Assembly (NCBI GenBank): GCA_030638735.1
Contig: DAOWEB010000162.1
Coordinates: 1,416 to 65,415, forward strand
Source: Spirochaetaceae bacterium
GTDB lineage: Bacteria; Spirochaetota; Spirochaetia; B11-G9
Direction: 5' to 3'
Length of the DNA stretch: 64,000 bases
How positions within the stretch are numbered: position 1 is the first letter of the stretch; each line of letters starts with the position of its first letter. A program made the translations under genes and the position numbers. The notes beneath the pieces were generated by a model, which had not been told where the DNA came from, made no database searches, and saw only the letters and a program-made list of their open reading frames with translations. Positions 30,201 through 46,479 of the stretch are shown here, one piece after another.

Positions 30201-33200
30201 GAGGAGATACGCCCAAAGGTTGAAGAAAATTTTGAAAACAGAAAGACTATTGATCGCCGTAGTATGGTGAATTATTCCCGGGCTTTATTCTCAGCACTTG
30301 GTATTAAGATTGAAGAAGGGATATTTAAGATAATAGATAGTGATATTTATAAGTTAATCTCTGATATTATCGGTGAAGATATATTAACATCTATATTAAA
30401 TGATGCTGCAACTATTAAAAGTGAGGAATATAATTTTACTGGTGATTCAATTTTTGCAGAAAAGATTATAGACCTGGTTAAAAAGAGTGGTAAAAAGAAT
30501 AAGCTCATTGAAAATATAGATGAAAAGCTTAAAATTTTACACGAACAGTTTAATAAGGCTTTTGAGAAATTACCTTCTAATGATCCAAGTGGCGTAAATA
30601 CACAGCTTTCCCTTGCTGGTTATGAACACAATCCATTTAAAGCCATAGATCATATAATTGGTATCTTATTTGATCGTTATAGCACTGAACTGGACGAGGC
30701 GAGTATATTAGATCTCTTTATGCGTAATAAGGATCCTTTGGCTTTATATGAAGCTATTATTAATGGCTCAGATCTTGGTTATAAAAATATAACACCTGAA
30801 GAATTACTGACTATTTTAGAACCACATATTAAAATAACCGGGCTTACCAGAATAAAAGACAGGCTTAAGAGTAAAAAGAATATTGCAGATGTAATTGCTG
30901 TTGAGGCTAGTGTAGCAAAAAGCAAAAAACATGCTCCGAGTAATCAGCAATTGATTGCCCTTCGTGAGGCTGTTTTTCAATTGGAAGAAAGTTTATCTAA
31001 GCGTCATATCAAATATCATGGATGGTATTATATAAAAGGATTGGCCGGTACAGGGAAAACTCAATTAATGGCCCTTTATTTTCCCGAGTTAATAGGTCTG
31101 ACTTATGATAATATAATTGCATTAAGTACACATGAGAATGCATTAAAAGTTTTACAAAGTACTCTTGATGGTGTTAAAAATACAGGACTTGCACAGGATA
31201 TTACTCAAGAGCAATTACAAAATGAAAAAATAGAACTTGTTATAGTTGATGAAGTCTCTAAATTATCTTCTGAAGAACTTGGTCAGTTGGCAGATAAGAT
31301 TACAGAAGCAAATGTCAAAAGACATGAGAATGAATTCAAAGATCTGAAGGTTGTTGTCCTTGGGGATCCGGCACAAGTATTAAATAAAGAATCGGAGAGT
31401 GCTCCTATAAATCGTATAGTTGGTGCTATCCTTAATATCAAAGAACTTTCTCCATTAACAACAGTATTTCGTTCAGGAAACACTGCGATTATCAGGGCTC
31501 AGAATATGTTCATAGACTTCCCTGGTAAGGTTAAGAACTTTATTGGTATGGCTTCTGAGAATATTGGATTACCAGCTATAGGTGTACATGTGTCTAATAG
31601 CGTGGTTGATCTTACAACACAACTAGCTATTCATAAAAAAGTAAATAAAAGATCTCGGGCAGTTGTTGTTGGAAATGAAGAACAGAAGAAACAGTATAAA
31701 CAAAAAGGTGTTGATGTGTTCTTACCACATGAGATTTCAAGTCTTGAGTATGATGAAGTTTATATTGATATTAATCCAAAAGAATATGATAAAGTCAGGA
31801 AATATAACGATGCAATGTATACTTCCATTTCACGGGCTATGGCATATACTTTTATTGTATCATACGAACAAGGGGATAGTTGGGGATATGAGACAGGAAA
31901 GATAGAGCAGGAAGATGTTGATCAAAGAGCAGCTGAGGTTCGTGCTGATTATACTGCCAGGTTAGAATTAGAAGTTAGTGTATTAGGAGATGAACTGAAA
32001 GCTGCAGGGATTAAACAGTCTCAGATATTTAATAATACTCCTGAAGAAGAAGAACAAGTCACTGAGAAACAAACAGATCAGTCAGATAATGATGGTGATC
32101 CGGTAAGTTCAAAGAATGTTGATGATATAGGTGGTAAGTTTGCAGATTCAGAACAGGTTAAAAGTGGACAGGTTCATGAATTGGAGTTTCCTTCATATGA
32201 TCCTATTAAAAATCAGGGTAAATTTGAGGATACAAAACCATTTGTACGTGAAGGATCCAGGGTTAAATACATTCATGTTTTAAATCCGAAGACTAAATTA
32301 CATGAAATACATATTGTAGCACAACATATTAATATTGATGGTACCCCACTTATTGGAGATGTATGGAGCTTGATAGGTGTAATGTCTCAAAATGAATTTG
32401 ATAATACCAAGATTGGAAAGAAGCTACTTCTTAAATCAGCAGAGAAGAAAACTACAGATGGTTATTTATCCAAAGGAAAGTATGGTACCATTAAACCTGC
32501 ATCTACAGGTAATCATGTCTTAGCTGAAGGAGTAATTAAAAAAGCCTCTTCATTATCATACATCTATGGTGATGATATATCTCGTAGTGGAATAGGTTTT
32601 ATAGCCGGGTTAAAGAAAAAAGTCCAAGAGGTTTTTAAGGGAGAGAAATTAACATTTAAAGTTAAAATATATACAACCAGTGATAATCGGCTTACTGCAG
32701 GTATTCCATATCTGGAGATCATACGTGAGCATACCAATCAATTTATACGCTTAACGGGACGCAGAATGCGCCGTGATGATCAGCACATGGTAGCAATTGA
32801 TAAGTTCCGGTCAGTAATGAAGCAGGTTGAAGATGCTGGTATTGGTAAATTAGGAGATCCATATGTTAATGAATTGTTAAAGCGATTCAGAAAAAACTTT
32901 GAGGTACAAAATGAAGAGATTGTAAGAAAAGAAAAAGATGGTTATACCTATGAGGTATATACCAAAGAAGCAAAAGAGAGACAGTTTCCAAAGATAACAG
33001 AAGAACAATTTAATTTACTTAATGAGTTATCAAAGGATTATATTCCTTCATTCTATAAATCAGGAGAGGTTAATAAGAAATTTGATACAGAACAAGAATA
33101 TAAAACGTGGTTAAAATCAGGACCGGAACTAGACAAAGATAATTCTTATGAGTGGGAAGAGAAGACGGGATATATAAAGGGAACCAGTACCCGTAATCCG

Positions 33201-36200
33201 GATCAGACAAAGTATTTGCGTGAGATGGGTCTTAAAGCAGAAGATGGGCCATTACAGATCAGGCTTAATGTAATTGCTAAAACGAATCCTAAATCATCTT
33301 TTGCTATTACCAAACGAATAAGTATCGAGAGAAACGGGAAAATTACAGTTAAGTATATCACTAAAGCTAAGTCTATTTTTAGTGAGAAATCTACCAGTGG
33401 TGTTTATTATCAGCACTTACTCGCTATTTATAAATCCATTAAGGAAGAGGCAACAAAGGAAGGGCTTGAAGATCTTATGCCTGTTAAATTGAGTGATTTT
33501 TTAAAGGACTCAAAGAAATATACCGAAGAAGATAATTTAACATTTCTGGAAGATATCTTATTGCAGTATAAAAATAAAGCAGGTACAACTGTCAAGGGAA
33601 TAAGTGCAACTGAGTTCAGGGAAGAGAGAGAGAAGCATCAGTCGGATCCTATTACCATGGAAACATTGGATGAGATATTATCTTTTGATGAGAATGGTAT
33701 TAACAATAATTTATATTACCCTTTACTATTACCATGGGTTAATAAGTTAGGTGAAGATCTTGGAACAAATGAGGGAGAATTAGAACAGGTATTGGGTTCC
33801 AGGCTCAAGGATATTAACAGGACCAGAATACAGGTAGAACTGGATCCCGGGACTATAGATATTTCTGAAGAGGGTGTACCGGAAAAAGCCCCAGGCAAAA
33901 AAGTAAAAGATAAGGTTGGTGAGGGAGTAAAGAAAATTCGTAGGCGTTGGGATAAACCCGATAAGAAAAGGCTTACACCAAAACGTGCCGGTAATGATCC
34001 CGGGGAAGTAGTTACAATTGAACAGGCTTTAGAGATGGCTCATAGATGGTTGCCTTCATTGAAAGATGATAAAGATTCATTACAGTTTGTAGAAAAAATG
34101 ATTATCGATGCTCTATCTGGAGAAAGTTCATATGGCCTTTATCAAGATCAGGTTGCTTATGTCATGAGTAAGGATGGTAAAACATTTGTTAAGCCTTTAC
34201 GTCATGAGATATTCCATAAGATATTTAATGAATTTCTTACTGGAAAAGAACAGCTAGCATTTGAGAAAGCATTTAAAGAGCAGTTTCCACAGTATAAGAA
34301 CAAGTCTTTGGAAGAGATAGAAGAACTGGCAAATGAGAAATGGCATGATCATACCAGAAAACCAATCAAAGGATTGAATAAAGTCATAATGGATTTCTTT
34401 AACATGCTATCAAAGGTATTTGGTTTTATGAATATGAATGTAAAAAATCTTGATCGCTTGTTCGAAACAATTGAGTCGGGACATTTTGTAAAGTCTAAGA
34501 ATGATGCTACAGGTATTAAAAGAAAAATGCGTGACCTGGTAAAGGATTTTGGAAATGGTACTGATACATTTAAGGGAGCCCTTGAGAACTATAAAAAGTC
34601 TAAGAATATAATCCTTACCGCTGTAAATGAAATACAGAGAGATGGATACCAGTATGAAGAGGATGGAAAATTATATCCTGTATCTATTTCAGAATTAGAT
34701 TTTATTGTAAGACAGGAGCTGGAGAATTTATATAAAGGATTGTTAAGTGATTTAAAAGAATATGATGTCGGTGTTGATATACTAACAAAGGCTGAGTATT
34801 TACGTGGTAATGAAAAGAAAGTTACCTACTCCTTGGCGTTGAAGAACTTTGATTCTCTTTGGAAATCTTTATTTCAGAATTATAAGATTACCACTCCTGT
34901 AGAACTTCGAATTGATGAGTCAATGACTGAAGAGGAGATTATTCAAGAATATAAAGAAGGAGATAATAAAACCAATCTTATTGATCATATAAGAAATTCA
35001 GATGAAGTTAATCAGGAAGATAAAATTAGTTTATTGGTAAAGGATTTCCTTAGTAATATATCTTTGAATGATGAAGCGTACATGAAATGGCGTGAAGCAT
35101 ATATCAGAACCTTACAAGTTTTAGAAGGTGTTCAGTTGAATGAAGATTTTATTATACAGATAGATCAGATGGTTAAAAAGCTTGGTAATAATCCAAGGGT
35201 TAAGATTGTAGCTGATAATCTAAAGGAGATGTATCAGGAGATAGTTCGGCCACCAAAGAATAGTAAAAATGAATCTCTGAGTAACACGGCTAAGTTTGTT
35301 ACTGAAGATATATTTGTTAAAGATGAAGAGTCTGTAAAGGATATTCATGGTAAACATTCTGCTGAGGTTTTAAATATCATACCCATTAACAGGAAGAATA
35401 AGGAAACTACTATAGCGTTTATAGATCGTATCTCTGAGGAAACAGAAATTCCTGTTGATGATGTTATCTCTTATTTTAATCATAATCAGAAACTTCGTAA
35501 GTTCAAGGCAATAAATAATCTTCTTAATAACCAGAATCAAAAAGACTTTTTTGTTGTCGAGAGAAAGAATGAAAGTGGGGGATTGTTTTCTATCAGCTAC
35601 ATACCTGCATCTACATACGGTGTACGTACTACCATTAAATCACAGATAGAAGAAGCTTTAAGAAATAAGATTTCAAATCGTGATGAGCTTGATGAATTTC
35701 TAAATAAATGGCTGGACCGTAATCGTAAGCAGCTGGCCGGGAACAGGTATACATTTGTAAAGAGTTTCCTTAAGCATATTGGCCTTGGCCACCTGGCCCC
35801 TACCTTACCAGATGTTGCATCAGATGAATTATATAATTCTATTATAGGATTCTTTGACCGTGCTAATAAAGAGATGGGTACTATTAAAAAAACTGAAGAA
35901 CATTTATTTGGTGTAGTAATTAAAGAAGAATTTGAGATAGGACTTGATTATCTTATTTCCAAGGATCCTAAGTTTATTAATCTCTTATCTACGATAATTG
36001 GTAGTAGTAGTTCATATATGAGAGCTACAAATATTAAGACTGGTGACGGGAAGAAAAGATACTTATGGTCCACATCATCATTTATGAATACTGTATTCAC
36101 TCACTTAATGAATAACAGTTCTAAGATCTATTCAAAGGTTAAATCTGTATTGCCAAAATATTTGGAAGCTGATTACTTTAAAAAGAATCCTTTTATATCT

Positions 36201-39200
36201 GGACAGTCAAGGATAAGTGCTATTATAAATAATGATGGTATTAAGAAAATATCGGACAGATCTTTTAGTGAATCATTTACTTCTTATAAAAATGAGAATC
36301 GTAAAGATTATATCACCCGTACTTTCATTGCCGGTTTTATGGATAGGATCAGAAGGTCAAAAGATGTTGATGTACGTTATTTCCAATGGTTATATCCCAA
36401 TGAACGTACCCAGGCAGTAGCAGCTGAGGTTGGGGTTAAAACCAAAGATCAAGTTCGTGATTATATAAAAATAGCTATCGAACAAATTAATGAATCTGAA
36501 AAATTTGATTCTATTAAACAAACAGAAAGTAAGAGATTCATAAATATGAGACTTCTTGAAGAGGCTCTTGGTAAGAGAAATATAACAACGAAAAAGCTTT
36601 CTCCAAAAGAGATAGATAAATATACTGATAAAGTAATTGAGTTATTAGCCCGTGAAGCAGATGAATTTGCTCAGTCAGTTATAGATAATAAGGTTCCATT
36701 TGATTCATTAGCTGGTCATATAGGTAATCTGCGTAAATTCCTTAGTAAAGAGGAAGTAAATATGCTTAAGGGTGAAGATGATCTTGTTATTACTACAGCA
36801 AATAAGGAATATAATATTCTAAAAGAGAATATCCTTCCACTAGTTGAGCTTTATGTGATGAATGATTATGTGAATTCATATTTCCTTAATCAACTTATCC
36901 TTGGAGATAACAATCAATTTGAAAATGAAGAGGATGTTATGAGAAGACATTCCCTTGCCACGGCACCGGGATCTATTCCTATTGTAAATGAAACATTTGG
37001 AATAAAGGAAAAAGTAAAGTTTGTTGTATTAGGAAATTCCATTAAGAGTATTGATGATATTAAAAATAGATTACTTCCATTGCTTACCGATGCTGAGAAA
37101 GAAAAACTTCCTGCATTACTTGATAAGTTTACAGATAATTTTGATTCTACAGATGGGCAAGGATTTATGACACCAGAGAGATTTGAAGAATTAGAGAACG
37201 CTGGATTTACAGAAGACTTTGGTATTAATGAGGTTTTAAAACCTGTTGTATATTCAATAAATGACAATGGAGTTGTTACCGGATTGAAATTCTCCTCTAT
37301 TGTACTCACAGACGAGCTTGTTGAGGAGTTCCCATCTCTAGGGGTACTTAGGTATAACTTAAGGAAAAAAAAAGGCGTAGATGAGGCTATATTCGCCTCA
37401 GGAGTGAAATTAGGAATGCCACAGGCTACAGCATCCTATCCTGAAATACTTACCGGTGAATATGAGATAATGGACACTATGACTATTGATGTGTTTAATC
37501 GTGATTACAGATTACAGCTTGATCCTAAATCAAAAATTAAAAGTAGAACAACACAACCCTCACAGCTTATCTATTTAATGAGTGTTCTGGATCAGAATAT
37601 TGATAGAGCAAAGAGAGCATATAATGCATTGGCTAAAATATCAAATCTTGAAGGAGAGACATTTTTGAGTAGATTTAAGAATAAGAAAACATTTAGAGAT
37701 GCCCTTTCAAATTTACTTGAAGGTCGTGGTAATGAGAGAATGTCAGATTTATTTAAGAGTGGTATATCTCATAATTTTCCTAATATCACAGATAAGCTTG
37801 TCATTCAAATGGCTAATCGTTTAAGTGATTCAATTGTTCATATTAAGTTCCCGGGTAATAAACTTGTATTACAATCAGAAACCGGTGTTCGTAAATATGG
37901 TAAATCAATTATTGATGAAGGAGCTCAGAAATTAGCATATAAACTAGATGATCAGGGTAATCTTGTTGCTGAGGTTATACTTCCATCGGGGATATTACCA
38001 AGAGAATATGAAGATAGAATCAAGGCTGCAATAGCACAAGGAAAAGACGCTCATGATTTTTATGATCTTCCTGATTTATTAGGATTCAGGATTCCTTCTT
38101 CAGATATTCATAGTGGAGTGGCCATGAAAGTTGTAGGATTTTATTCTACTCCTGATATTAATGTTGTTATAGCTCCGGATTTACTTGTTGCTTTACATGG
38201 TTCAGACTTTGATGTAGACTCATTATTTTTGATAAACAGATATCATTATCCAAAAGGACATGAAAATCAATATGAACCAATAGGATATTACAAAGGAAAA
38301 AATGGTAGATGGGAATTTAATGAAAAGAAAGAAGAGTTTGATACCAGGGAAGAGGAAATCAAGTATTATAAAAATACTGTTGTTCATGAATTACTTGATC
38401 TTATAAGCAATCCAAAGAATAAAATAGATATGTTATCTCCTATTCCTATGAATCCTATTTATAAGGAAAAAGATAGGGCTGAGGGATTAACTAAAGAACA
38501 AGTAACTTTTGATTTGAGTAATACTAATCATAAGCTTGAAGCTCATGATGTAATCTTTGGTGCTGCAACAGCAACCGGAGTATTTGGTAATGCTGCCAAA
38601 GCATTTGCATATTTACTTAGAACAAATAGCAAGGGTACAATGCCTGAATTAAAAGAAGATGTTTCCGGGATTGTTGTCAATGATCATGAGTTTCGTAAGA
38701 TCCAGTTATATGATGGCATTAAAGAAGATGGTGAAAATCTTTTTACATCAATCGATGGATTTATTAATGCTGCTATTGATAATATCAGGGTACTGGCCCT
38801 TCATTCATTGAATATTACAAGTGAAACTATAGATGCATTTATAACTATGCGTGGTCTTGGAGTACCCCTTGAGACAGTAGATAATATTTTACTTCAACCA
38901 TCTATCAGGGATTATTCTAAAATAGGTTCTTTGGAAAAGGTGCGTGAACATATTATGTATAAACTTGGTAAAACAGATGTAGATACAGATGAGATCGAGT
39001 TAAATGATGATAACCTATCAATTAAAATTAAAAAATATAATAGCATAAGTGATATCCCTGATGGTAATTTAAAAGAATTGACCTTTCAACTCAGAGTAAT
39101 AGAGGAATTTGCAAAAGCAAAAGCTATTGGTGATCAAATAAGCAATATGTCAAAATGGCTTAAGATTGCCAGAACATTACCGGTTACTAAAGTTGAGATC

Positions 39201-42200
39201 GATGATAGTATTGAGTCTGCAATAAAACTCTTTGGTGAAGTAAGTGTTGATGGTAAGATACCTGATCAGATATCATCAGAATTTCCATTTCTAATCCCGG
39301 AATTCTTCGAAAAAAATATGCATATCTTATCATTCTTTAATAAACTCAGAGAGGTTAATGGTTTAATCGAACAAAAATTTCTTAAATATAGTCCAGAATT
39401 TAATAGTCATGTTGAAAAAGCATTGGCATTATTTTCTAAGATTTCTACTATCAGGGAAGACAAAGGGGAGTTTATGAGAAATGAATTGCTGACCTATCTT
39501 ATTGCAAATGAAATTTATTCTGGTGAGTATTCACTCGAGAGAGATGTTGAGTATCAATATAAAATAGGGAATGATATAATTACTATTACCGGTCCAAAGG
39601 CAATAAACCAGATCTTTATTAAGAAAATCTTTGCATTGACGGATTACATGGGTAAGCAAACAGCTAAAACAGGTAAAGAAATAAATAATCAATTCCTGGA
39701 TCATATCAGTCCTGTTTATAATATCATTACAAAAACATATGAGTTGAGATTTGATGGTGGTTCTCACTTAGATACTGATGATCAACTTGATTTTCAATCA
39801 GCATTTTTGGAACTTAATAAATATGAGGTTAATTATAACAAGAAAACTGGAGCATATACTGTGGTTGAAAGAAAAGGAGAGATTGCAGATAATAATTATA
39901 GTAATTTCCAGAAAGAATTTGTCAGTTATGGAGTAATGAATTGGGGATTACAATTCGGATCTTCTAATTACAGTTCTATATTACCAGGGGAGATGTATGC
40001 TGAAGTAGATGGACTATTTAATGAGATACTTGAAAATGCCACAAGTGCTGCATCAGATATATTTTGGGATAATATACAGGATGATTTTGCTATCCAGTTT
40101 GTGATTAATCATGGTAGGAGATTACAGGATCATTTCTTTTTTACCGGTAAGCCAGTTAAACAAGGTGATATGTATATTGGAAATGACAGGATAGATTTTT
40201 ATGGTGGACGTACAGATTCTTTCTTTTATGATAGATCTTATAGCAATCCTGATGGTAAAGTACATGATAAATATATAGTTACCAGATCTTTTAAAGGTGG
40301 ATATCAAGCATTTATAAGAATGAATGGTGAAACAGCCGATACAGTATACTATCAAAGGATAGGAAGAGTTAATCCATTTAAATTCTATAATACTTCAGAT
40401 GAAGTTCTTACCAAGGGATATATAGTGGAAGATCATTTTGGTGGACTTACCTATAATCATACTGTAAACGATCTTAATAGTAAAATGTTTGAGTATCATG
40501 GTTCAGATCTTAAGGTTGGTGATGATATAACATTTACACAACATCATGACGTTACCAGAGTGGATAAAGCTTATAAAAAAATCACAAAAATTGAAGGTAC
40601 GAATGTAACAGTGAAAGACTCTAAAATAACGGAAGTAAAAAAAGCAGATCTTAAGCCTAAGTCCAGTATTATTAATGAGAAACAATCTGTAAATAAAGCA
40701 AGTGCGGAGCTTATTACTGGTGAGAACGGAAAAGTATATCAAATTTTAGATCGTATTATTAATAGTATCCCTTCCGGAATAAGAAAAAAAGCCCTTGAAA
40801 CATTACGTGATGAGATACTTAAAAGAGATATTAAGATAATCAGACAAGATTTAGACGGATCATGGGCCAGGTTCTATCCTGATGGAACTGTGGCTATTGA
40901 TATAAATAAGATAGTTGAAGAAATTAAAGATGATGTTGTCCAGCATACAGATACTGCTTTTACTCATGAACTGTTTCATTCTGTAACTCTTATTAATTAT
41001 TTGACTGATAAAGATTTTAAAGGAAAAATTGATTCTATTATTAAACAACATTTTACAGTAGATAAAAAAGGGGTTCTTCGTTTTAAAAATGAATCTGATT
41101 TTAATGCTGTCAAGGAAGTATATAAAAGACATGGTTTCATTGTTAAAAAGGAAGATGATATTTATGGACTTACTGATATTATTGAATTTATGTCAGAGAT
41201 ATTTAATGATGGTAAGTTCTCGGAAGCCATGGATGCTATTTATGAATCATCGGAGCAGAAAAGTGCCCTAAGAAGAATTATAGATGCTATTTTAGAATTC
41301 TTTGGATGGAAAAATTCAGAAGAATTTAAGATTTCGGATCATCTCCTTGGTCTTGTAAAGGAACAGGTCCAAAGACCTGATCTTATTAGAGTATCTAAGG
41401 ACCTTTATAAAGATGCAGCTGGTAATTATTACAATTTAAAATCTATAAATTATGTAGATATTGAGGTAGAGACTGAACCGGAAGCCAAGGAAGAGGTTAA
41501 GGATAAAACCCGGGAAAAGATTATGAATACCGCTAATAATATCAAGGAACATTCAGAGAAGGTACATGTAGAAAAGCTTGAAAACGGGTTAGAGGGTAAT
41601 AGTTATATAATTAAAGCTACTGCAGATCGTATTCGTAGAATTACTGATCGAAAAGGTGGGATGATATCTTTTTTCTCAAATAAAGTAATAGATCCTCTAG
41701 TATCCTGGGCACAGAATCTTGCGGATATGAAATGGCAAGACACAGAAAAGGAACATAAGTTTCGAACTGATGAAGGTAAGATGGAGGATTATAATGAATT
41801 CAAAACCCGTAAAGAAAGTGAGCTTAAGTTTGGTGAGATAAAAGGTAAGATCGTACACTTGAATTTTGTGAAGGTGGCTAATAAACTATTCAATCTAAGA
41901 TTAAATAATGATGATATCACCAAAGAGATAAATGACCTGGCATCATTATCTGAAAATCAAATATCCCCATCCAATTATGATTGGGTGTTTGATCCTGCTA
42001 CATTACAGAAGATATTTAAAAATGCTGGTATTAATGTATTAATGGAAGATATCCCGGAAACATTAAAAGATATGGCATACCTTCCAGAACAGATAGTATG
42101 GAATGAGAAACTTGGTTTTGGAGGATCAGTTGATGCATTAATTGGACATGCTGATAATACATGGAGTATTATTGATTGGAAAACAGGTAGGAATTTTGGT

Positions 42201-45197
42201 AAGCGAACATCCACTGAACCACTTAAATATGGTCAGCAGGAAGTATTTATTACAGATAATCAAAGGGAACATGCCAAACTACAGGTAATGATGTATGCAG
42301 TAATGCTTAAGCTTAATAATAAAGAAATGAAATTTAGGGACCTGATGGTTATGTGGGTTCCTGATGATTGGATGGCAGAACGTGTGGATAATGAAAGGTT
42401 TGTTGAGGTACGTGCTTATTTACGTATGGTAGAATCATTCTTTAATGATAAGAAAGCCTTGAAAGAGGCGGGTATTGATCCAAATATTAAGGATTATATG
42501 CTTGAAAATAGTCCTGATATTTTTAACCCTACACATTATACTGCTAAATCCAGTGATAGTTTAACCAAGGAACTAATCGATAATGAATTTACTCCTGAAG
42601 AGGCATATCGTAGAAAAGTTCTTGAAATGACTATTATACTAAGTCGCTTTAAAGAACAACGTCAGGTGCGTCATGATGAATTACGTGATGATGAATTGGA
42701 AAGACTAAAGGTATTATATGAAGAGATAGCTATTATGCGTTCTGATCCGGGATTACAGATAGATGTTAGTTCATCCCAGGATATAGGAGTATTTACAGAA
42801 TGGTTTGGGAATTACAATGATATCAGCATGGATGTGTTTCAAACATGGGTAAAAATTAGAAATGAAAACTGGAATAAATATACTCAGCAACATGATAGAG
42901 AGGTTAATAAAATAAATGAGCTTCTAAAGCCTATTTATGCTAGATATATGAAGGGGAAAGTGAAATTTACCAGGGGGGGTATAGATAGACTTGCTCTTGT
43001 GAATTATGCTGAGTTATTTTCATTTGCCTTTAAAGAAGTTGAACTTGATGGATATGCCAGAGAACGTTTATTAACAGATGAAGATGAAGAGTGGAATAAT
43101 TTACGTGATGATGAAAAAGCATTCTTAAATTTTGTAAATAATAAATTTCAACAGTGGTACATTGGAGAAAAAGCTTATCTGAATCAGACAGCTACTGAAA
43201 TGGGTGGGAAGAAATATTCATGGCTTGAACTATATAATATAAATCGTTCTGAGGAAAAGAAGATGAAGTATTATGATGGTTGGTTTCCAAAGATAATGAA
43301 AACCCAGGAAGAAGTTAATTACGAACAAGGGGCCCGGGTACTTGGTCAGCAAATAGGGGCAGGAGATATTACAGGAGCAAATATCATTGGTAAATTCAGC
43401 AGGCAATCTATAAGGGGAAGAATTAAACGAGCTTTAACCTGGTACGAAGAAAATACATTTGAAGGTTTTGATGATCGAAGAATGAGTCTTCCTATTAAAT
43501 TCCAAGACAGTCATTATATTTTAAATAGTAGAGATTATTCCAAGAATGTGCTTTTCATGTTTGATAAATTTAATAAGTCTATGCTTCATAAATCTCATAT
43601 GGATAAGGTTTATGCTACAGGACAAGGTTTAAAAGCATATTTACAATTAAAAAAATATGGTAATGGTCAACCTATGTTTGAAAATACTATTCGATTCTTA
43701 GATAAGAAAATGATATCTGATCTTCAAAATGTTACCATTCCTATTAAATATTCCAGCAAACCAATAACTTTTGGTAAAAAGAATATTTCTCCTGATAAAA
43801 TTATAATGCAGCTTATTAATTGGACCAGTGCTACAATAATGTGGTTAAAACCATTTCAAGGTACAGGTAATGGATTACATGCTAAATTACTTACATATAG
43901 AGAGGGATTAAAAGGTACTATAGCAAGTAAATTCTTAAACATAGAAGGTGATGCTATTGATTTTAGAGTTGAAGATAATGCTTTTGCAGATACACAATAT
44001 TTTGGTGATTTTACAAAAGATGCATTATTTGGAGATCTGAATAAAAATAAGATGTGGTTATTAGCTAGAAAATTGAATTATATACCTGATAATTATGATT
44101 ATGCTACAAATAAAAGATTCTTATTATCTACCAGGAATGTTCTTATTAATAGAAGTAATATGTATATGTTTCATAGTAAGCCAGAGGAATATGTATCATT
44201 GACTACAATGACAGCACAATTAAATTATTTAAAAAATCCAGTTACAGGAAAATCATTATGGGATTCATATCAAGTAGAGAAACAAGAAGATGGTACATAT
44301 GATGTTGTTTGGAAAGGTGGTGTCAGAGGATTTGAACGTGAAGGAAAAGGTATTGCTTCGAGAGATATACCAATTACAGAACTTACATCACATGAAATAA
44401 GTAAACTCAAAAGGGTACATGAGAGAATGCAGGGTGGTTATAGAAAAGAAGAAGCTGCTAATATTGAAGTATATGTGATGGGAAAGGCCTTTATACAATT
44501 CAAAAAATATTTACCAAGACTTATTATAAATGCATTATCAAGTAAAAGAGCTGAGGTTTCATTGGGTACATATAGAGAGCTTAGTGAAAAAAGAATATGG
44601 ACAGATCCAGAAACAGGAGAGAAAACAGAACTTGATGTTTATGAATGGATAAGAAGAACAAATGAAGGTCGTTGGCGTACAACTGTTAATTGGATTCTCG
44701 CTTCTACCAATATGAGTAAGAACCGGGAATATAAATGGTCACAACTTGAATCAGAACAGAAACAGAATGTTGTTGATTTTATGCTTGGAATAAGTATATG
44801 GGGATTATTTAGTGCTTTATATGCAGTGATGTTTGCTGATGATGATGATGATGATACATTTAAGAAATGGTGGAGAAATTATATGATATTAAACTTGAGT
44901 CAACAATATAATCCATATGAATTACTTCATACAGTAGAAACAGCAATGCGTCCTGTATCATTCAGTCGTGCTTTTAAAGCTACAGAAGCTATAAGAAATA
45001 TGATGATTGCTACTGGAAATTTAATGATTGGGAATACAGATAAAGCATTAACTACATCAGGAGAATTACAAGGTTGGAATGAATTTATGAGATCAGTACC
45101 CTATTTGGCATCATGGCATGATTTTGCTAATAAGATGAAACATGGTGATACTACAGAAGAATGGTGGACAAGTACTTGGGATTACAAATGGCGATAA
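27261..45197 (+). CDS. giant multidomain virion protein containing a crAss-type (two-barrel, beta-prime-like) RNA polymerase module
   Basis: A 17,937-nt ORF with no stop codon in an AT-rich genome. It contains RIPSSDIHS...GSDFDVD (comparable to the bacterial beta-prime NRAPTLHRLG...NADFDGD), SF1-helicase motifs, two HExxH motifs, a PD-(D/E)xK motif set, and terminal hydrophobic segments. Confidence 0.8.
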   Translation: MAKKNRTWIKLDGQTIMPPTLDENLLPIEETLPLDEDILELNTGRGKQSYFDIDYSKSTSRRLEGTGQPIYDEEGVLAANQSFISKVASGVVSRGTSIFPKIGQNVAHMAGAINYGVDYMFEAAKFLTTEEGTKFEPDVDPAMIWDNQLAETFKIVDDKLLEELPVYKHHYERYGSLKDQMRGTAFWANDLLDGIAFLGMAYVTGAGIGAASKGMLFSKAFLATTKGKQAVQSVKTISATVLNAMGESGFETKDYNDSQRDFISYREYGEAYKQLPEDLQKEIKEQVAPGAARVYRGNLGVLILPNYVQSRFMYGSAGRAAKGVRNAVRSGKMTASDIKVWKEGLKGGGLSALTEGLWEEGMQHSLQTYNERKISSNQDWGDYMNGLANQWVDNWATTEGQKSMMLGALIGLGFGGIGGVGQAMAKKKFISEEEKIWDDLTKILDINNQWYTEHISAPFQKHKNKKTVNGETIEIEGYYDENGEVTTDPEKLRRMFLYMVNNKFLYDEAMAAAVNGDDIHLKAVNNDALARLYYRYATSPGITNLDEVDELLLKRELQVPVELQDEGITQQFTKESLAPFREAYEEAETALMDLDDFTENKDDRFWKDVVQKTLFGEKMKRDFLNDLKLDENISKETSEQIDRLLKDSSQRTKLLLRKDTREKLKKEYQKEISSQEEALLKQKAIFNKEIDTEEERIRAQYEIDEFFDINGKSTPFSTEWIYDYDITYDNALGMSRPFGTKYNYFKELGDQYSKKATIRDELDKTKSGRASISVPLKMAEQAGISGVMFSEEEVLEMETAVGERDKNLSRAEKKVAEREAFNESYPEEITEAFINEQGFPEGRQIPNPAITPEIQAAIDRNSKYLDAYQKRVADQILAKEALNALREMTKANDEKVSRNKIKTHRRFQRKFADYPVKRAINLANTFKSNKSFDDANIVGSTLRELKNRKRIYAMPGRKMMLTTNEFKGYIESVNDVITELEEIRPKVEENFENRKTIDRRSMVNYSRALFSALGIKIEEGIFKIIDSDIYKLISDIIGEDILTSILNDAATIKSEEYNFTGDSIFAEKIIDLVKKSGKKNKLIENIDEKLKILHEQFNKAFEKLPSNDPSGVNTQLSLAGYEHNPFKAIDHIIGILFDRYSTELDEASILDLFMRNKDPLALYEAIINGSDLGYKNITPEELLTILEPHIKITGLTRIKDRLKSKKNIADVIAVEASVAKSKKHAPSNQQLIALREAVFQLEESLSKRHIKYHGWYYIKGLAGTGKTQLMALYFPELIGLTYDNIIALSTHENALKVLQSTLDGVKNTGLAQDITQEQLQNEKIELVIVDEVSKLSSEELGQLADKITEANVKRHENEFKDLKVVVLGDPAQVLNKESESAPINRIVGAILNIKELSPLTTVFRSGNTAIIRAQNMFIDFPGKVKNFIGMASENIGLPAIGVHVSNSVVDLTTQLAIHKKVNKRSRAVVVGNEEQKKQYKQKGVDVFLPHEISSLEYDEVYIDINPKEYDKVRKYNDAMYTSISRAMAYTFIVSYEQGDSWGYETGKIEQEDVDQRAAEVRADYTARLELEVSVLGDELKAAGIKQSQIFNNTPEEEEQVTEKQTDQSDNDGDPVSSKNVDDIGGKFADSEQVKSGQVHELEFPSYDPIKNQGKFEDTKPFVREGSRVKYIHVLNPKTKLHEIHIVAQHINIDGTPLIGDVWSLIGVMSQNEFDNTKIGKKLLLKSAEKKTTDGYLSKGKYGTIKPASTGNHVLAEGVIKKASSLSYIYGDDISRSGIGFIAGLKKKVQEVFKGEKLTFKVKIYTTSDNRLTAGIPYLEIIREHTNQFIRLTGRRMRRDDQHMVAIDKFRSVMKQVEDAGIGKLGDPYVNELLKRFRKNFEVQNEEIVRKEKDGYTYEVYTKEAKERQFPKITEEQFNLLNELSKDYIPSFYKSGEVNKKFDTEQEYKTWLKSGPELDKDNSYEWEEKTGYIKGTSTRNPDQTKYLREMGLKAEDGPLQIRLNVIAKTNPKSSFAITKRISIERNGKITVKYITKAKSIFSEKSTSGVYYQHLLAIYKSIKEEATKEGLEDLMPVKLSDFLKDSKKYTEEDNLTFLEDILLQYKNKAGTTVKGISATEFREEREKHQSDPITMETLDEILSFDENGINNNLYYPLLLPWVNKLGEDLGTNEGELEQVLGSRLKDINRTRIQVELDPGTIDISEEGVPEKAPGKKVKDKVGEGVKKIRRRWDKPDKKRLTPKRAGNDPGEVVTIEQALEMAHRWLPSLKDDKDSLQFVEKMIIDALSGESSYGLYQDQVAYVMSKDGKTFVKPLRHEIFHKIFNEFLTGKEQLAFEKAFKEQFPQYKNKSLEEIEELANEKWHDHTRKPIKGLNKVIMDFFNMLSKVFGFMNMNVKNLDRLFETIESGHFVKSKNDATGIKRKMRDLVKDFGNGTDTFKGALENYKKSKNIILTAVNEIQRDGYQYEEDGKLYPVSISELDFIVRQELENLYKGLLSDLKEYDVGVDILTKAEYLRGNEKKVTYSLALKNFDSLWKSLFQNYKITTPVELRIDESMTEEEIIQEYKEGDNKTNLIDHIRNSDEVNQEDKISLLVKDFLSNISLNDEAYMKWREAYIRTLQVLEGVQLNEDFIIQIDQMVKKLGNNPRVKIVADNLKEMYQEIVRPPKNSKNESLSNTAKFVTEDIFVKDEESVKDIHGKHSAEVLNIIPINRKNKETTIAFIDRISEETEIPVDDVISYFNHNQKLRKFKAINNLLNNQNQKDFFVVERKNESGGLFSISYIPASTYGVRTTIKSQIEEALRNKISNRDELDEFLNKWLDRNRKQLAGNRYTFVKSFLKHIGLGHLAPTLPDVASDELYNSIIGFFDRANKEMGTIKKTEEHLFGVVIKEEFEIGLDYLISKDPKFINLLSTIIGSSSSYMRATNIKTGDGKKRYLWSTSSFMNTVFTHLMNNSSKIYSKVKSVLPKYLEADYFKKNPFISGQSRISAIINNDGIKKISDRSFSESFTSYKNENRKDYITRTFIAGFMDRIRRSKDVDVRYFQWLYPNERTQAVAAEVGVKTKDQVRDYIKIAIEQINESEKFDSIKQTESKRFINMRLLEEALGKRNITTKKLSPKEIDKYTDKVIELLAREADEFAQSVIDNKVPFDSLAGHIGNLRKFLSKEEVNMLKGEDDLVITTANKEYNILKENILPLVELYVMNDYVNSYFLNQLILGDNNQFENEEDVMRRHSLATAPGSIPIVNETFGIKEKVKFVVLGNSIKSIDDIKNRLLPLLTDAEKEKLPALLDKFTDNFDSTDGQGFMTPERFEELENAGFTEDFGINEVLKPVVYSINDNGVVTGLKFSSIVLTDELVEEFPSLGVLRYNLRKKKGVDEAIFASGVKLGMPQATASYPEILTGEYEIMDTMTIDVFNRDYRLQLDPKSKIKSRTTQPSQLIYLMSVLDQNIDRAKRAYNALAKISNLEGETFLSRFKNKKTFRDALSNLLEGRGNERMSDLFKSGISHNFPNITDKLVIQMANRLSDSIVHIKFPGNKLVLQSETGVRKYGKSIIDEGAQKLAYKLDDQGNLVAEVILPSGILPREYEDRIKAAIAQGKDAHDFYDLPDLLGFRIPSSDIHSGVAMKVVGFYSTPDINVVIAPDLLVALHGSDFDVDSLFLINRYHYPKGHENQYEPIGYYKGKNGRWEFNEKKEEFDTREEEIKYYKNTVVHELLDLISNPKNKIDMLSPIPMNPIYKEKDRAEGLTKEQVTFDLSNTNHKLEAHDVIFGAATATGVFGNAAKAFAYLLRTNSKGTMPELKEDVSGIVVNDHEFRKIQLYDGIKEDGENLFTSIDGFINAAIDNIRVLALHSLNITSETIDAFITMRGLGVPLETVDNILLQPSIRDYSKIGSLEKVREHIMYKLGKTDVDTDEIELNDDNLSIKIKKYNSISDIPDGNLKELTFQLRVIEEFAKAKAIGDQISNMSKWLKIARTLPVTKVEIDDSIESAIKLFGEVSVDGKIPDQISSEFPFLIPEFFEKNMHILSFFNKLREVNGLIEQKFLKYSPEFNSHVEKALALFSKISTIREDKGEFMRNELLTYLIANEIYSGEYSLERDVEYQYKIGNDIITITGPKAINQIFIKKIFALTDYMGKQTAKTGKEINNQFLDHISPVYNIITKTYELRFDGGSHLDTDDQLDFQSAFLELNKYEVNYNKKTGAYTVVERKGEIADNNYSNFQKEFVSYGVMNWGLQFGSSNYSSILPGEMYAEVDGLFNEILENATSAASDIFWDNIQDDFAIQFVINHGRRLQDHFFFTGKPVKQGDMYIGNDRIDFYGGRTDSFFYDRSYSNPDGKVHDKYIVTRSFKGGYQAFIRMNGETADTVYYQRIGRVNPFKFYNTSDEVLTKGYIVEDHFGGLTYNHTVNDLNSKMFEYHGSDLKVGDDITFTQHHDVTRVDKAYKKITKIEGTNVTVKDSKITEVKKADLKPKSSIINEKQSVNKASAELITGENGKVYQILDRIINSIPSGIRKKALETLRDEILKRDIKIIRQDLDGSWARFYPDGTVAIDINKIVEEIKDDVVQHTDTAFTHELFHSVTLINYLTDKDFKGKIDSIIKQHFTVDKKGVLRFKNESDFNAVKEVYKRHGFIVKKEDDIYGLTDIIEFMSEIFNDGKFSEAMDAIYESSEQKSALRRIIDAILEFFGWKNSEEFKISDHLLGLVKEQVQRPDLIRVSKDLYKDAAGNYYNLKSINYVDIEVETEPEAKEEVKDKTREKIMNTANNIKEHSEKVHVEKLENGLEGNSYIIKATADRIRRITDRKGGMISFFSNKVIDPLVSWAQNLADMKWQDTEKEHKFRTDEGKMEDYNEFKTRKESELKFGEIKGKIVHLNFVKVANKLFNLRLNNDDITKEINDLASLSENQISPSNYDWVFDPATLQKIFKNAGINVLMEDIPETLKDMAYLPEQIVWNEKLGFGGSVDALIGHADNTWSIIDWKTGRNFGKRTSTEPLKYGQQEVFITDNQREHAKLQVMMYAVMLKLNNKEMKFRDLMVMWVPDDWMAERVDNERFVEVRAYLRMVESFFNDKKALKEAGIDPNIKDYMLENSPDIFNPTHYTAKSSDSLTKELIDNEFTPEEAYRRKVLEMTIILSRFKEQRQVRHDELRDDELERLKVLYEEIAIMRSDPGLQIDVSSSQDIGVFTEWFGNYNDISMDVFQTWVKIRNENWNKYTQQHDREVNKINELLKPIYARYMKGKVKFTRGGIDRLALVNYAELFSFAFKEVELDGYARERLLTDEDEEWNNLRDDEKAFLNFVNNKFQQWYIGEKAYLNQTATEMGGKKYSWLELYNINRSEEKKMKYYDGWFPKIMKTQEEVNYEQGARVLGQQIGAGDITGANIIGKFSRQSIRGRIKRALTWYEENTFEGFDDRRMSLPIKFQDSHYILNSRDYSKNVLFMFDKFNKSMLHKSHMDKVYATGQGLKAYLQLKKYGNGQPMFENTIRFLDKKMISDLQNVTIPIKYSSKPITFGKKNISPDKIIMQLINWTSATIMWLKPFQGTGNGLHAKLLTYREGLKGTIASKFLNIEGDAIDFRVEDNAFADTQYFGDFTKDALFGDLNKNKMWLLARKLNYIPDNYDYATNKRFLLSTRNVLINRSNMYMFHSKPEEYVSLTTMTAQLNYLKNPVTGKSLWDSYQVEKQEDGTYDVVWKGGVRGFEREGKGIASRDIPITELTSHEISKLKRVHERMQGGYRKEEAANIEVYVMGKAFIQFKKYLPRLIINALSSKRAEVSLGTYRELSEKRIWTDPETGEKTELDVYEWIRRTNEGRWRTTVNWILASTNMSKNREYKWSQLESEQKQNVVDFMLGISIWGLFSALYAVMFADDDDDDTFKKWWRNYMILNLSQQYNPYELLHTVETAMRPVSFSRAFKATEAIRNMMIATGNLMIGNTDKALTTSGELQGWNEFMRSVPYLASWHDFANKMKHGDTTEEWWTSTWDYKWR
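30980..31870 (+). other. SF1 (RecD/Dda/UvrD_C_2-like) helicase-type P-loop domain inside the giant ORF
   Basis: Walker A GLAGTGKT (31038-31061), Walker B LVIVDEVS (DE at 31248-31253), motif III VLGDPAQ (about 31363-31377), and the C-terminal MYTSISRAMAYTFIV motif (about 31813-31860). Confidence 0.7.
34203..34217 (+). other. HExxH motif 1 (HEIFH, aa 2315-2319 of the giant ORF)
   Basis: Context is KPLRHEIFHKIFNEF, so the zincin-like motif sits in a predicted helix. Confidence 0.45.
38088..38219 (+). other. beta-prime-type DPBB catalytic segment (R3610...D3649-F-D-V-D3653)
   Basis: FRIPSSDIHSGVAMKVVGFY...VVIAPDLLVALHGSDFDVD parallels E. coli beta-prime NRAPTLHRLGIQAF...AIQLHPLVCAAYNADFDGD in both order and spacing. 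Confidence 0.75.
40965..40979 (+). other. HExxH motif 2 (HELFH, aa 4569-4573 of the giant ORF)
   Basis: Context is DTAFTHELFHSVTLINYL. Confidence 0.45.
41830..42300 (+). other. RecB/Cas4-like PD-(D/E)xK nuclease motif set inside the giant ORF
   Basis: GEIKGKIVHLNF (G..vH), GGSVDALIGH (D4958), WSIIDWKTG (D4972-x-K4974) and LQVMMYAVM (QxxxY), in canonical order and spacing. Confidence 0.65.
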
Positions 45198-45585: not shown

Positions 45586-45929
45586 TCATCATCAATAGCT
45601 TTTTCTTTCTGATCAAATTCCTCTCTATTTTTAAATATATAGAGGTTTCTATCATTAAAGTATCTGAGTAATTTATTCATATTTGTATGTTCACTGATAA
45701 ATCCATACCAGTATCTATTTAAATAATCAGAGAATACAAGATAATGTAAACCATAACAAGGTTCTAGATTATCTTTTGTTGCAACACGTTTCTTTGGTTT
45801 AAGTCTATAGAAATGTGTAAAGTCTTCAGATAGTTTGAAAGTATCTGGTAGAGAATTAAAATAAGCATTCACATGATCACCATATGGCATCTTTAATCCT
45901 ATTAATGCTATATAAGTTGGTACTTCCAT
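45570..45929 (-). CDS. hypothetical protein
   Basis: 119-aa ATG ORF. TAATG overlap with the HNH gene. Confidence 0.6.
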   Translation of the reverse strand: MEVPTYIALIGLKMPYGDHVNAYFNSLPDTFKLSEDFTHFYRLKPKKRVATKDNLEPCYGLHYLVFSDYLNRYWYGFISEHTNMNKLLRYFNDRNLYIFKNREEFDQKEKAIDDECLII

Positions 45930-46462: not shown

Positions 46463-46479
46463 ATAATAAAGATATTAAT

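What the first reader, a model, noticed from the sequence alone, without database searches (positions are those of the whole stretch)
41830..42300. RecB/Cas4-type PD-(D/E)xK nuclease motifs near the C-terminus of the giant protein
GKIVHLNF, GGSVDALIGH, WSIIDWKTGRNFG and HAKLQVMMYAVM reproduce the G..H / D / D-x-K / QxxxY series of RecB-family nucleases. The stand-alone Cas4-like nuclease in this same window (55320-56237) shows the same series. A nuclease that enters the cell with the DNA could degrade host or competitor DNA, or process the phage genome ends. I have not seen it described as part of a virion RNAP protein.
Basis: partly seen in the sequence, partly recalled or inferred. Interest (0 to 1): 0.6.

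Follow-up and report, generated by a model that had tools for sequence, protein, structure and literature searches.

The report
Nuclease domain in crAss-like giant protein
The 5,978-residue protein of this crAss-like phage carries a well-conserved, probably active DNA-cutting domain of the RecB/MGME1 type, but such a domain in the large transcription proteins of these phages has already been noted in the literature and its role is still unknown.

Summary
The region scores over Pfam's PDDEXK_1 cut-off (26.3 vs 22 bits) and folds confidently (pLDDT 84.6). Its best structural matches are MGME1, ACE1/Cas4, Dna2, Exo5 and AdnAB. The catalytic residues are kept in 146 relatives: D4958 146/146, D/E4972 146/146, K4974 138/146.

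The contig is a complete 99.4-kb crAss-like phage. The giant protein is a fusion of the equivalents of phi14:2 gp67, gp66 (virion RNA polymerase) and gp65 (RNAP-associated virion protein). The nuclease lies in the gp65-like part, between a zincin-like HExxH domain and a constant C-terminal region of about 860 aa.

Three parts of the interpretation fail:
- It is not Cas4 proper: it has no cysteines, so no Fe-S cluster.
- It is not a detectable paralogue of the 305-aa nuclease.
- It is not undescribed: Yutin et al. 2021 and a 2023 review already mention a PDDEXK domain in a large transcription-block protein.

I also find it in published genomes (cr1_1, ProJPt-Bp1) and a weakly related domain in a different large protein of DAC15 and Kolpuevirus. 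phi14:2 gp65 and crAss001 gp49 lack it, so it is an accessory domain.

The function is inferred: an ejected nuclease that works on DNA ends. This is a new member of a known kind, of modest interest.

The parts
27261..45197 (+). Giant ORF of 5,978 aa: fused equivalents of phi14:2 gp67, gp66 (vRNAP) and gp65
   Evidence: ORF list and translation. Collinear matches to phi14:2 gp67, gp66 and gp65. Profile matches to gp65 and crAss001 gp49. 31 relatives of 5,600-8,000 aa share the same parts.
41634..42548 (+). PD-(D/E)xK nuclease domain, aa ~4792-5096
   Evidence: PDDEXK_1 26.3 bits, over the cut-off. phrog_298 exonuclease. AF2 pLDDT 84.6. Foldseek hits to MGME1, ACE1, Cas4, Dna2 and Exo5.
41844..41858 (+). 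Motif I, GKIVH (G4862, H4866), in the long first helix
   Evidence: G in 145/146 relatives; H in 132/146, with E or D in the rest. Helix 60-93 of the model.
42087..42089 (+). E4943 on the first core strand
   Evidence: E in 133/146 relatives, Q in 10. Strand 155-164 of the model.
42132..42134 (+). Motif II, catalytic D4958 (GGSVD)
   Evidence: D in 146/146 relatives. Strand 169-178 of the model.
42174..42182 (+). Motif III, D4972-W-K4974 (the (D/E)xK)
   Evidence: D in 139 and E in 7 of 146 relatives; K in 138/146. Strand 184-191 of the model.
42282..42296 (+). Motif IV, Q5008xxxY5012
   Evidence: Q in 118 (E in 27) and Y in 109 (R in 28) of 146 relatives. Helix 217-235 of the model.
40623..41612 (+). 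Zincin-like region upstream of the nuclease, with HELFH at aa 4569-4573 (nt 40965-40979)
   Evidence: HExxH is kept: H 73, E 79 and H 81 of 85 relatives. The profile of this region hits phi14:2 gp65 aa 128-416 at E 7e-31. gp65 is described as zincin-like in 10.1101/2020.03.07.982082.
42603..45194 (+). Constant C-terminal region (aa 5115-5978) that follows the nuclease in every full-length relative
   Evidence: 800-970 aa follow the nuclease in full-length proteins from 1,143 to 7,277 aa. The profile hits phi14:2 gp65 at 2e-26 and crAss001 gp49 at 1e-26. This is the most conserved part of the giant protein. No solved fold was found.
44778..44855 (+). Hydrophobic helix (aa 5840-5858) followed by an acidic run (D6)
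   Evidence: Highest hydropathy in the protein. The hydrophobic and acidic pattern is kept in 122 relatives.
31023..31841 (+). SF1 helicase domain (aa 1255-1527) in the same polypeptide
   Evidence: Pfam AAA_30 37 bits and Viral_helicase1. Present in 31/31 giant relatives. Lies on a separate upstream gene in L023.
38205..38219 (+). DFDVD metal-binding motif of the two-barrel RNA polymerase part
   Evidence: Position. DFDVD or DFDID is kept in 42 of 49 relatives that have the RNAP part, with DYDVD or DYDID in two more. Weak alignment to gp66 aa 1010-1370, which holds DFDID.
55320..56237 (-). Separate 305-aa Cas4-like nuclease in the replication block. It is a comparison only, not part of the feature.
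   Evidence: PDDEXK_1 22.7 bits and Cas_Cas4 20.6 bits. Cys cluster CKKCPWKDC. No similarity to the giant protein's domain.

Best explanation
Residues ~4792-5096 form a metal-dependent PD-(D/E)xK nuclease of the RecB clade. It is the Fe-S-free type and is closest in fold to MGME1 and ACE1.

It is an accessory domain inserted in the gp65-like part of a fused gp67-gp66-gp65 polyprotein of a crAss-like phage. It lies between a zincin-like domain and the conserved C-terminal region.

By orthology to the virion proteins phi14:2 gp65 and crAss001 gp49, the protein is packed in the capsid and ejected with the DNA. The nuclease therefore acts in the first minutes of infection.

All its structural relatives work on free DNA ends or single-stranded tails. 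I therefore think its most likely substrate is a linear DNA end, first of all the entering end of the phage's own genome. Resection there, helped in this clade by the SF1 helicase of the same polyprotein, would expose single-stranded DNA. The crAss-type virion polymerase prefers that template, and exposed terminal repeats could then anneal.

Shown: the fold, the motifs, their conservation and the domain's position in a gp65 orthologue.
Inferred: catalytic activity, packaging and the substrate.
For: Fold and family.

Selection on the active site: D4958 146/146, D/E4972 146/146, K4974 138/146. The nuclease core is 0.45-0.50 identical among 13 giant proteins, against a mean of 0.36.

gp65 orthology: the zincin profile hits gp65 at 7e-31, and the C-terminal profile hits gp65 at 2e-26 and crAss001 gp49 at 1e-26.

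Packaging: gp65, gp66 and gp67 are virion proteins, and they are fused in some phages (10.1101/2020.03.07.982082; MS/MS notes in the record).

Position: the gene is the last of the structural block, after the muzzle protein (crAss_MUZ, 564 bits). The same position holds in relatives.

[quoted passage not shown] Helicase, RNAP and nuclease occur together in 31/31 giant relatives, and in L023 they occur as neighbouring genes.

My estimates for each step: fold 0.95; catalytically active 0.8; virion-delivered 0.7; own genome end as substrate 0.35.
Against: No biochemical or proteomic data exist for this protein or its clade.

phi14:2 gp65 and crAss001 gp49 lack the nuclease. phi14:2 gp67 and crAss001 gp47 lack a Pfam helicase. 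phi14:2 nevertheless transcribes its early genes with the virion polymerase, so the nuclease cannot be needed for that step in general.

cr1_1 and ProJPt-Bp1 have the nuclease but no Pfam-detectable helicase in the upstream giant protein. A helicase-nuclease pairing is therefore not obligatory.

Helicase and nuclease lie about 3,300 residues apart, with the polymerase between them.

Eight of 146 relatives lack the lysine, and 28 have E...R in place of Q...Y.

The physical genome ends are unknown. The 141-bp overlap of the contig ends most likely reflects a circular assembly.
Confidence: 0.55

Rival explanations
1. It is an ejected effector of the 'polyvalent protein' kind. On this reading it is a swappable weapon domain on the gp65 scaffold. 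It would attack host DNA, competing plasmids or phages, or nucleic-acid parts of host defence, rather than the phage's own DNA.
For: The domain is sporadic among crAss-like phages: present here and in cr1_1 and ProJPt-Bp1, absent in phi14:2 and crAss001. The cr1_1 orthologue carries an ADP-ribosyltransferase domain typical of polyvalent proteins just upstream (ART-PolyVal, 40.5 bits). Iyer et al. 2017 (PMC5512222) describe such multidomain injected proteins with self-cleaving peptidases. A conserved zincin-like domain lies next to it.
Against: All close structural relatives need DNA ends or single-stranded tails, and a circular host chromosome offers none. No target or immunity partner is evident. 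The strict linkage to the ~860-aa C-terminal region in every relative suggests a fixed place in a machine rather than a free effector.
Confidence: 0.28
2. The nuclease acts late, in the cell that makes the virions. It would serve recombination, concatemer processing or packaging before or while the polyprotein is loaded into capsids. Its delivery to the next host would then be incidental.
For: Many phage PD-(D/E)xK exonucleases serve recombination, and the best PHROG match is a generic phage 'exonuclease' family. The gene lies in the late structural block.
Against: The phage already has a separate Cas4-like nuclease in its replication block, as do relatives. The domain is embedded in an orthologue of a virion protein.
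Confidence: 0.1
3. The domain is an inactive or purely DNA-binding remnant that anchors the protein to the genome end.
For: Some relatives have lost the lysine (8/146) or changed Q...Y to E...R (28/146). PD-(D/E)xK folds are known to be reused for binding.
Against: In this protein every catalytic residue is present. The two acidic positions are kept in 146/146 relatives down to about 28% identity.
Confidence: 0.07

Closest known systems
PDDEXK domain in the large transcription-block proteins of crAss-like phages (Yutin et al. 2021, PMC7886860; review PMC10136315)
   Same: The phage order, gene block and superfamily are the same. I found the domain in the last large protein of the block in the published genomes cr1_1 (gp077, E 4.6e-8 with my profile) and ProJPt-Bp1 (PJPA_042, PDDEXK_1 28.7 bits). 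A BFVD model of a large cr4_1 protein is even named 'Exonuclease'.
   Different: Here the whole block is one 5,978-aa polypeptide that also holds an SF1 helicase. The clade is known only from metagenomes: tblastn with three family sequences found no counterpart of the nuclease among 50,697 GenBank phage records. The papers give no residues, structure or function.
phi14:2 gp65 and crAss001 gp49 (RNAP-associated virion proteins)
   Same: They share the zincin-like domain and the C-terminal region (E 7e-31, 2e-26 and 1e-26), and the position next to the polymerase gene.
   Different: Neither has the nuclease. No profile hit was found even with filters off. In gp49 only about 170 residues lie between the two shared parts.
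MGME1 and ACE1 (Fe-S-free or Cas4-family RecB-like nucleases), then Cas4, Dna2, Exo5 and AdnAB/AddAB/RecB nuclease domains
   Same: They share the PD-(D/E)xK core with the motif order G..H, E, D, (D/E)xK, QxxxY. Foldseek probability is 1.00, E 5.7e-4 to 5e-3. There are also weak profile hits to 9iab and MGME1.
   Different: Sequence identity is 10-15% and TM-scores are only 0.3-0.6. There is no Fe-S cysteine cluster, unlike Cas4, Dna2, Exo5 and AddB. The domain is embedded in a viral polyprotein rather than a repair or CRISPR protein.
C-terminal nuclease of the gp47-like protein of Bacteroides phages DAC15 and Kolpuevirus
   Same: They have a clear motif series: GTSVDE, GTLDLL, FDMKT, KQVSMY. 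PDDEXK_1 scores 17.9-21.2 bits. hhalign to my family gives E 1.7e-4 across motifs II-IV.
   Different: The domain sits in a different protein (the gp67/gp47 side) and at its extreme C-terminus. It is not followed by the ~860-aa region. Homology is only suggestive (probability 50%).
Polyvalent proteins of phages and conjugative elements (Iyer et al. 2017, PMC5512222)
   Same: They are giant multidomain proteins delivered with the DNA, combining peptidase, helicase and effector domains.
   Different: That class was defined on other architectures. Membership here rests on analogy plus the ART-PolyVal domain in the cr1_1 orthologue.

Membership tests
PD-(D/E)xK nuclease superfamily, RecB-like (Pfam PDDEXK_1) | Score over Pfam's curated cut-off | tested here: met
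   26.3 bits against 22 for the 430-aa piece, and 22.3 bits for the 3,178-aa piece.
PD-(D/E)xK nuclease superfamily, RecB-like (Pfam PDDEXK_1) | Alpha-beta-beta-beta-alpha-beta core fold | tested here: met
   AF2 model with pLDDT 84.6: helix 60-93, strands 155-164, 169-178 and 184-191, helix 217-235, strand 241-249. Foldseek hits to RecB-clade nucleases.
PD-(D/E)xK nuclease superfamily, RecB-like (Pfam PDDEXK_1) | Catalytic D ... (D/E)xK plus QxxxY, conserved in relatives | tested here: met
   D4958 146/146, D/E4972 146/146, K4974 138/146, Q5008 118/146, Y5012 109/146.
PD-(D/E)xK nuclease superfamily, RecB-like (Pfam PDDEXK_1) | Metal-dependent DNA cleavage | not testable with these tools
   Needs an enzyme assay.
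Cas4 proper | Four cysteines that bind an Fe-S cluster | tested here: not met
   0 cysteines in aa 4785-5115.
Cas4 proper | Match to the Cas_Cas4 profile and a CRISPR-cas neighbourhood | tested here: not met
   No Cas_Cas4 hit for the domain at E up to 10. The neighbours are phage structural and replication genes.
crAss-like gp65/gp49 RNAP-associated virion protein | Zincin-like HExxH domain | tested here: met
   HELFH at aa 4569 is conserved. The profile hits gp65 at E 7e-31.
crAss-like gp65/gp49 RNAP-associated virion protein | Homologous C-terminal region | tested here: met
   The profile hits gp65 aa 962-1406 (2e-26) and gp49 aa 562-1322 (1e-26).
crAss-like gp65/gp49 RNAP-associated virion protein | Presence in virions | not testable with these tools
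   Known for phi14:2 only, through the record's MS/MS notes and the paper.
crAss-like virion RNA polymerase (gp66 type) | DxDxD motif and homology to gp66 around it | tested here: inconclusive
   DFDVD at aa 3649 is kept in relatives. The pairwise match to gp66 aa 1010-1370 is only E 0.0018, and there was no PDB or PHROG hit.
Crassvirales phage | Hallmark capsid, portal, terminase and muzzle genes | tested here: met
   The MCP is 37% identical to Steigviridae MCPs. TerL, portal and MCP match PHROGs. crAss_MUZ scores 563.8 bits.
Helicase-nuclease end-resection enzymes (RecB, AddAB/AdnAB, Dna2) | SF1 helicase and RecB-type nuclease in one protein or complex | tested here: met
   AAA_30 at aa 1255-1413 (with Viral_helicase1 the helicase region runs to aa 1527) and PDDEXK_1 at aa ~4943-5036, inside the ~4792-5096 domain. 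Both are present in 31/31 giant relatives.
Helicase-nuclease end-resection enzymes (RecB, AddAB/AdnAB, Dna2) | Obligatory pairing and adjacency of the two domains | tested here: not met
   The two are about 3,300 aa apart. The nuclease occurs without a Pfam helicase in cr1_1 and ProJPt-Bp1.

The most novel reading that the evidence does not exclude
In this clade the ejected polyprotein is a self-contained 'resect and transcribe' machine. The SF1 helicase and the RecB-like nuclease strip one strand from the entering genome end. This makes the single-stranded template that the QDE-1-like virion polymerase needs. The parallel is the need of QDE-1 for the helicase QDE-3 and RPA.
Probability: 0.15. 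Interest if true: 0.75.

Novelty: new member of a known kind. Interest (0 to 1): 0.33.

Why it matters
crAss-like phages are among the most abundant phages in the human gut, and they are also found in environmental viromes. How their virion polymerase gets a usable template is still open, because it transcribes single-stranded DNA well and native double-stranded DNA poorly.

A nuclease that travels with that polymerase is an obvious candidate helper or weapon. It is conserved in at least 234 sequence clusters.

This report adds residue-level detail: the domain limits, the catalytic residues, their conservation, the lack of an Fe-S cluster and a fixed partnership with the C-terminal region. It also points to cultured Bacteroides phages with a related domain, where the question could be tested.

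It does not reveal a new kind of system.

Tried and rejected
- **GenBank phage records.** blastn and tblastn of the region and of two other family members (P0064, P0143) found no counterpart of the nuclease or its module. The single weak hit, P0143 against Leptolyngbya phage Lbo-JY46, lies outside the nuclease.
- **PDB by single sequence.** phmmer of the domain and of the polymerase part found nothing useful. The profile search gave only weak hits.
- **NCBIfam.** No hit for either nuclease.
- **Paralogy with the 305-aa gene.** Rejected by BLASTP and hhalign.
- **Nuclease in phi14:2 gp65 or crAss001 gp49.** Not found, even with filters off.
- **Obligatory helicase-nuclease pairing.** Rejected, because cr1_1 and ProJPt-Bp1 have the nuclease without a Pfam helicase.
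- **Fold of nuclease plus C-terminal region (1,194 aa).** The model was mediocre (pLDDT 67, pTM 0.38). Foldseek returned only the nuclease hits, so the C-terminal region stays without a known fold.
- **Homologue search with the 1,278-aa module.** The word-index search found only two proteins. The exhaustive search was far more useful.
- **The look-up of sequencing runs.** I could not look for genome ends or transcription in reads.
- **One script timed out** because I merged spurious weak domains. It was redone.
Full report
**What is there**

The window has one uninterrupted ORF, 27261-45197 (+), of 5,978 aa.
- GKIVHLNF at aa 4862-4869
- GGSVDALIGH at aa 4954-4963
- WSIIDWKTGRNFG at aa 4968-4980
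- HAKLQVMMYAVM at aa 5004-5015

The last string runs 5 nt past the stated end. The residue numbers D4958, D4972 and K4974 are correct.

**Is it a nuclease domain?**

- Pfam PDDEXK_1 matches at 26.3 bits, over the curated cut-off of 22 (E 8.3e-6). It still matches when the whole C-terminal half of the protein is scanned.
- PHROGs gives phrog_298 'exonuclease' at E 1.9e-10.
- An AlphaFold2 model built on 15 homologous segments has pLDDT 84.6 and pTM 0.84. It shows a long helix bearing G4862/H4866. Three consecutive strands bear E4943, D4958 and D4972/K4974. A helix bearing Q5008/Y5012 follows, and then a fourth strand. This is the classic PD-(D/E)xK core.
- Foldseek against the PDB returns only RecB-clade nucleases at the top: MGME1, the Argonaute-associated Cas4-family protein ACE1, Cas4, Dna2, Exo5, AdnAB and RecBCD. 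Probability is 1.00 and E is 5.7e-4 and up. TM-scores are modest, at 0.3-0.6.
- Foldseek against viral models returns PD-(D/E)xK exonucleases. They include segments of large proteins of the gut crAss-like phages cr108_1 and cr4_1, and the cr4_1 segment is already named 'Exonuclease'.
- A profile search of PDB sequences gives weak hits to the same families.
- The domain contains no cysteine. It therefore cannot carry the Fe-S cluster of Cas4, AddB, Dna2 or Exo5, and it resembles the Fe-S-free MGME1 type.

**Conservation**

A word-index search found 15 other giant proteins with this region at 28-54% identity. An exhaustive HMMER search of 1.84 billion representatives found 234 proteins, 139 of them at E <= 1e-10.

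In 146 of these proteins with a near-complete domain:

| Residue | Conservation |
|---|---|
| D4958 | D 146/146 |
| D4972 | D 139, E 7 |
| K4974 | K 138/146 |
| G4862 | G 145/146 |
| H4866 | H 132/146, the rest E or D |
| E4943 | E 133/146 |
| Q5008 | Q 118/146, E 27 |
| Y5012 | Y 109/146, R 28 |

Among 13 giant proteins, the nuclease core is 0.45-0.50 identical to the window's protein, against a whole-protein mean of 0.36. That is similar to the polymerase core.

**What the giant protein is**

The window lies on a 99,404-bp contig whose ends overlap by 141 bp. It is binned with a 4.3-Mb metagenome-assembled genome.

The contig encodes a terminase, a portal protein and a major capsid protein. 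The capsid protein is about 37% identical to those of Steigviridae, namely crAss001, DAC15, Kolpuevirus and Cellulophaga phage phi14:2. The gene at 19187-23020 is the Crassvirus muzzle protein (Pfam crAss_MUZ, 563.8 bits). This is a crAss-like phage.

The giant protein matches three neighbouring phi14:2 virion proteins in order:
- aa 127-428 match gp67 (E 6e-12).
- aa 3325-3658 match gp66 aa 1010-1370, which holds the DFDID site (E 0.0018). DFDVD lies at aa 3649 here.
- aa 4615-4692 and 5544-5871 match gp65.

Profiles built from the relatives make the gp65 link firm:
- The 330 residues before the nuclease hit gp65 aa 128-416 at E 7e-31. This region holds a conserved HExxH, HELFH at aa 4569.
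- The region after the nuclease hits gp65 aa 962-1406 at 2e-26.
- The same region hits crAss001 gp49 aa 562-1322 at 1e-26.

Drobysheva et al. report the following (10.1101/2020.03.07.982082):
- gp65, gp66 and gp67 are virion proteins.
- In some phages the three are fused into one huge polyprotein that is probably cleaved.
- gp65 has a zincin-like protease domain.

The window's protein is such a fusion. The nuclease sits in its gp65-like part.

**Anatomy of the module**

Every full-length relative, from 1,143 to 7,277 aa, has 800-970 residues after the nuclease. Nuclease plus C-terminal region is therefore one unit. It occurs in three fusion states:
- alone, at about 1,250 aa, or about 1,500 aa with the zincin domain
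- fused to the polymerase (12/12 proteins of 3,400-4,600 aa)
- fused to helicase plus polymerase (31/31 proteins of 5,600-8,000 aa)

Fused and split forms are mixed across the domain tree.

Gene order is kept in the split forms. In L002-L004 the 1,263-aa nuclease protein follows the polymerase gene. It ends the block just before a replication block on the other strand, which has its own small PDDEXK nuclease. In L023 a helicase-bearing gene precedes a polymerase-nuclease fusion.

The C-terminal region is the best-conserved part of the protein. It carries a conserved hydrophobic helix followed by an acidic run. It has no recognisable solved fold.

**Distribution among known phages**

- The nuclease profile does not hit phi14:2 gp65 or crAss001 gp49, even with filters off. 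In gp49 there is no room for it between the two shared parts.
- It does hit the last large protein of the block in two published Suoliviridae genomes. These are cr1_1 gp077 (E 4.6e-8) and Azobacteroides phage ProJPt-Bp1 PJPA_042 (PDDEXK_1 28.7 bits). Both are annotated as hypothetical proteins.
- Their upstream giant proteins have no Pfam helicase.
- phi14:2 gp67 and crAss001 gp47 have no Pfam helicase either.
- The cultured Bacteroides phages DAC15 and Kolpuevirus have a clear PD-(D/E)xK motif series at the C-terminus of their gp47-like protein. This is a different position, and the domain is only weakly related to this family.

The nuclease is therefore an accessory domain that some lineages have and others lack.

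**Relation to the 305-aa gene**

The stand-alone protein (55320-56237, -) is also PDDEXK_1 (22.7 bits). It has a weak Cas_Cas4 hit and a C-terminal cysteine cluster. BLASTP and hhalign find nothing significant between it and the giant protein's domain. The two share a superfamily, not a recent origin. They correspond to two of the nuclease classes named by Yutin et al.: the replication-block gene (PDDEXK_b) and the domain in a large transcription-block protein.

**Prior knowledge**

Yutin et al. 2021 (PMC7886860) describe three PDDEXK varieties in crAss-like phages. One is in the structural block and one in the replication block. [quoted passage not shown] The 2023 review (PMC10136315) repeats this and says the function is unclear. 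I found no paper with a functional test. The domain is thus known at the level of annotation and uncharacterised beyond that.

**How it most likely works**

Shown: the fold, an intact and selected active site, and a fixed place in an orthologue of a virion protein.

Inferred: the protein is packed and ejected, so the nuclease acts at the very start of infection.

All close structural relatives process DNA ends or single-stranded tails. The only free end present in the cell at that moment is the entering phage DNA. gp66 transcribes single-stranded or denatured DNA well and native duplex poorly. Its eukaryotic relative QDE-1 needs a helicase and RPA. In this clade a helicase and the nuclease travel with the polymerase.

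My best guess is therefore end resection of the incoming genome, to expose a template or to let terminal repeats anneal. This guess is weakened by two facts. Phages without the domain transcribe early genes anyway, and in Suoliviridae the nuclease occurs without a helicase.

The main rival is an injected weapon domain in the sense of polyvalent proteins (PMC5512222). It is supported by the sporadic distribution and by the ADP-ribosyltransferase domain in the cr1_1 orthologue. A late role in the producing cell, or a purely binding role, is less likely.

**Verdict**

The claims of Cas4 type, of paralogy and of novelty do not hold. This is a new, well-resolved member of a known but unstudied kind.

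Noticed in passing
L021:6825-12848 (-), cr1_1 gp077: The gut crAss-like orthologue of the nuclease module carries an ADP-ribosyltransferase domain of the 'polyvalent protein' type (ART-PolyVal, 40.5 bits, aa 291-399). It lies upstream of its zincin and nuclease domains.
   Followed up: partly
L024 and L025 (Kolpuevirus OQ198718.1 39100-40500; DAC15 NC_055832.1 50400-51800): The cultured Bacteroides phages have a clear PD-(D/E)xK motif series (GTSVDE, GTLDLL, FDMKT, KQVSMY) at the C-terminus of their ~2,250-aa gp47-like protein. This is a different place from the window's domain. hhalign to the window's family gives E 1.7e-4.
   Followed up: partly
window 34203-34217 and 40965-40979: There are two HExxH motifs: HEIFH at aa 2315 and HELFH at aa 4569. 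The second is conserved in 85 relatives and lies in the region homologous to the zincin-like domain of phi14:2 gp65. It may cut the polyprotein.
   Followed up: partly
window 44778-44855: The most hydrophobic stretch of the protein (aa 5840-5858) is followed by six aspartates. The pattern is kept in 122 relatives. It could be a membrane-inserting helix of an ejected protein.
   Followed up: partly
window 27261-45197 and relatives (tree): Fused forms (~6,000 aa), half-fused forms (~3,800 aa) and split forms (~1,250-1,600 aa) of the same module are interleaved on the domain tree. Fusion and fission, or gene-calling breaks, have therefore happened many times.
   Followed up: partly
contig C200 (window = C200:1416-65415): The 99,404-bp contig has identical 141-bp ends, which suggests a circular assembly and hence a complete phage genome. 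It is binned in a 4.3-Mb, 431-contig genome of 36% G+C. The true physical ends are unknown.
   Followed up: no
window 54428-55306 (-): The gene next to the stand-alone Cas4-like nuclease matches DUF3871 (31.1 bits). It may be that nuclease's partner in recombination.
   Followed up: no
window 45929-47277 (-): An HNH endonuclease gene (45929-46462) and a weak radical-SAM match (46480-47277; 22.2 bits, under the cut-off) lie directly after the giant gene on the other strand.
   Followed up: no
L020:10120-17145 (+), crAss001 gp47: The profile of the region upstream of the window's nuclease also hits the C-terminus of crAss001 gp47 (aa 2017-2270, E 5e-9). It hits gp49 as well (aa 78-390, E 1e-7). 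crAss001 may therefore have two copies of the zincin-like domain, in two proteins.
   Followed up: no
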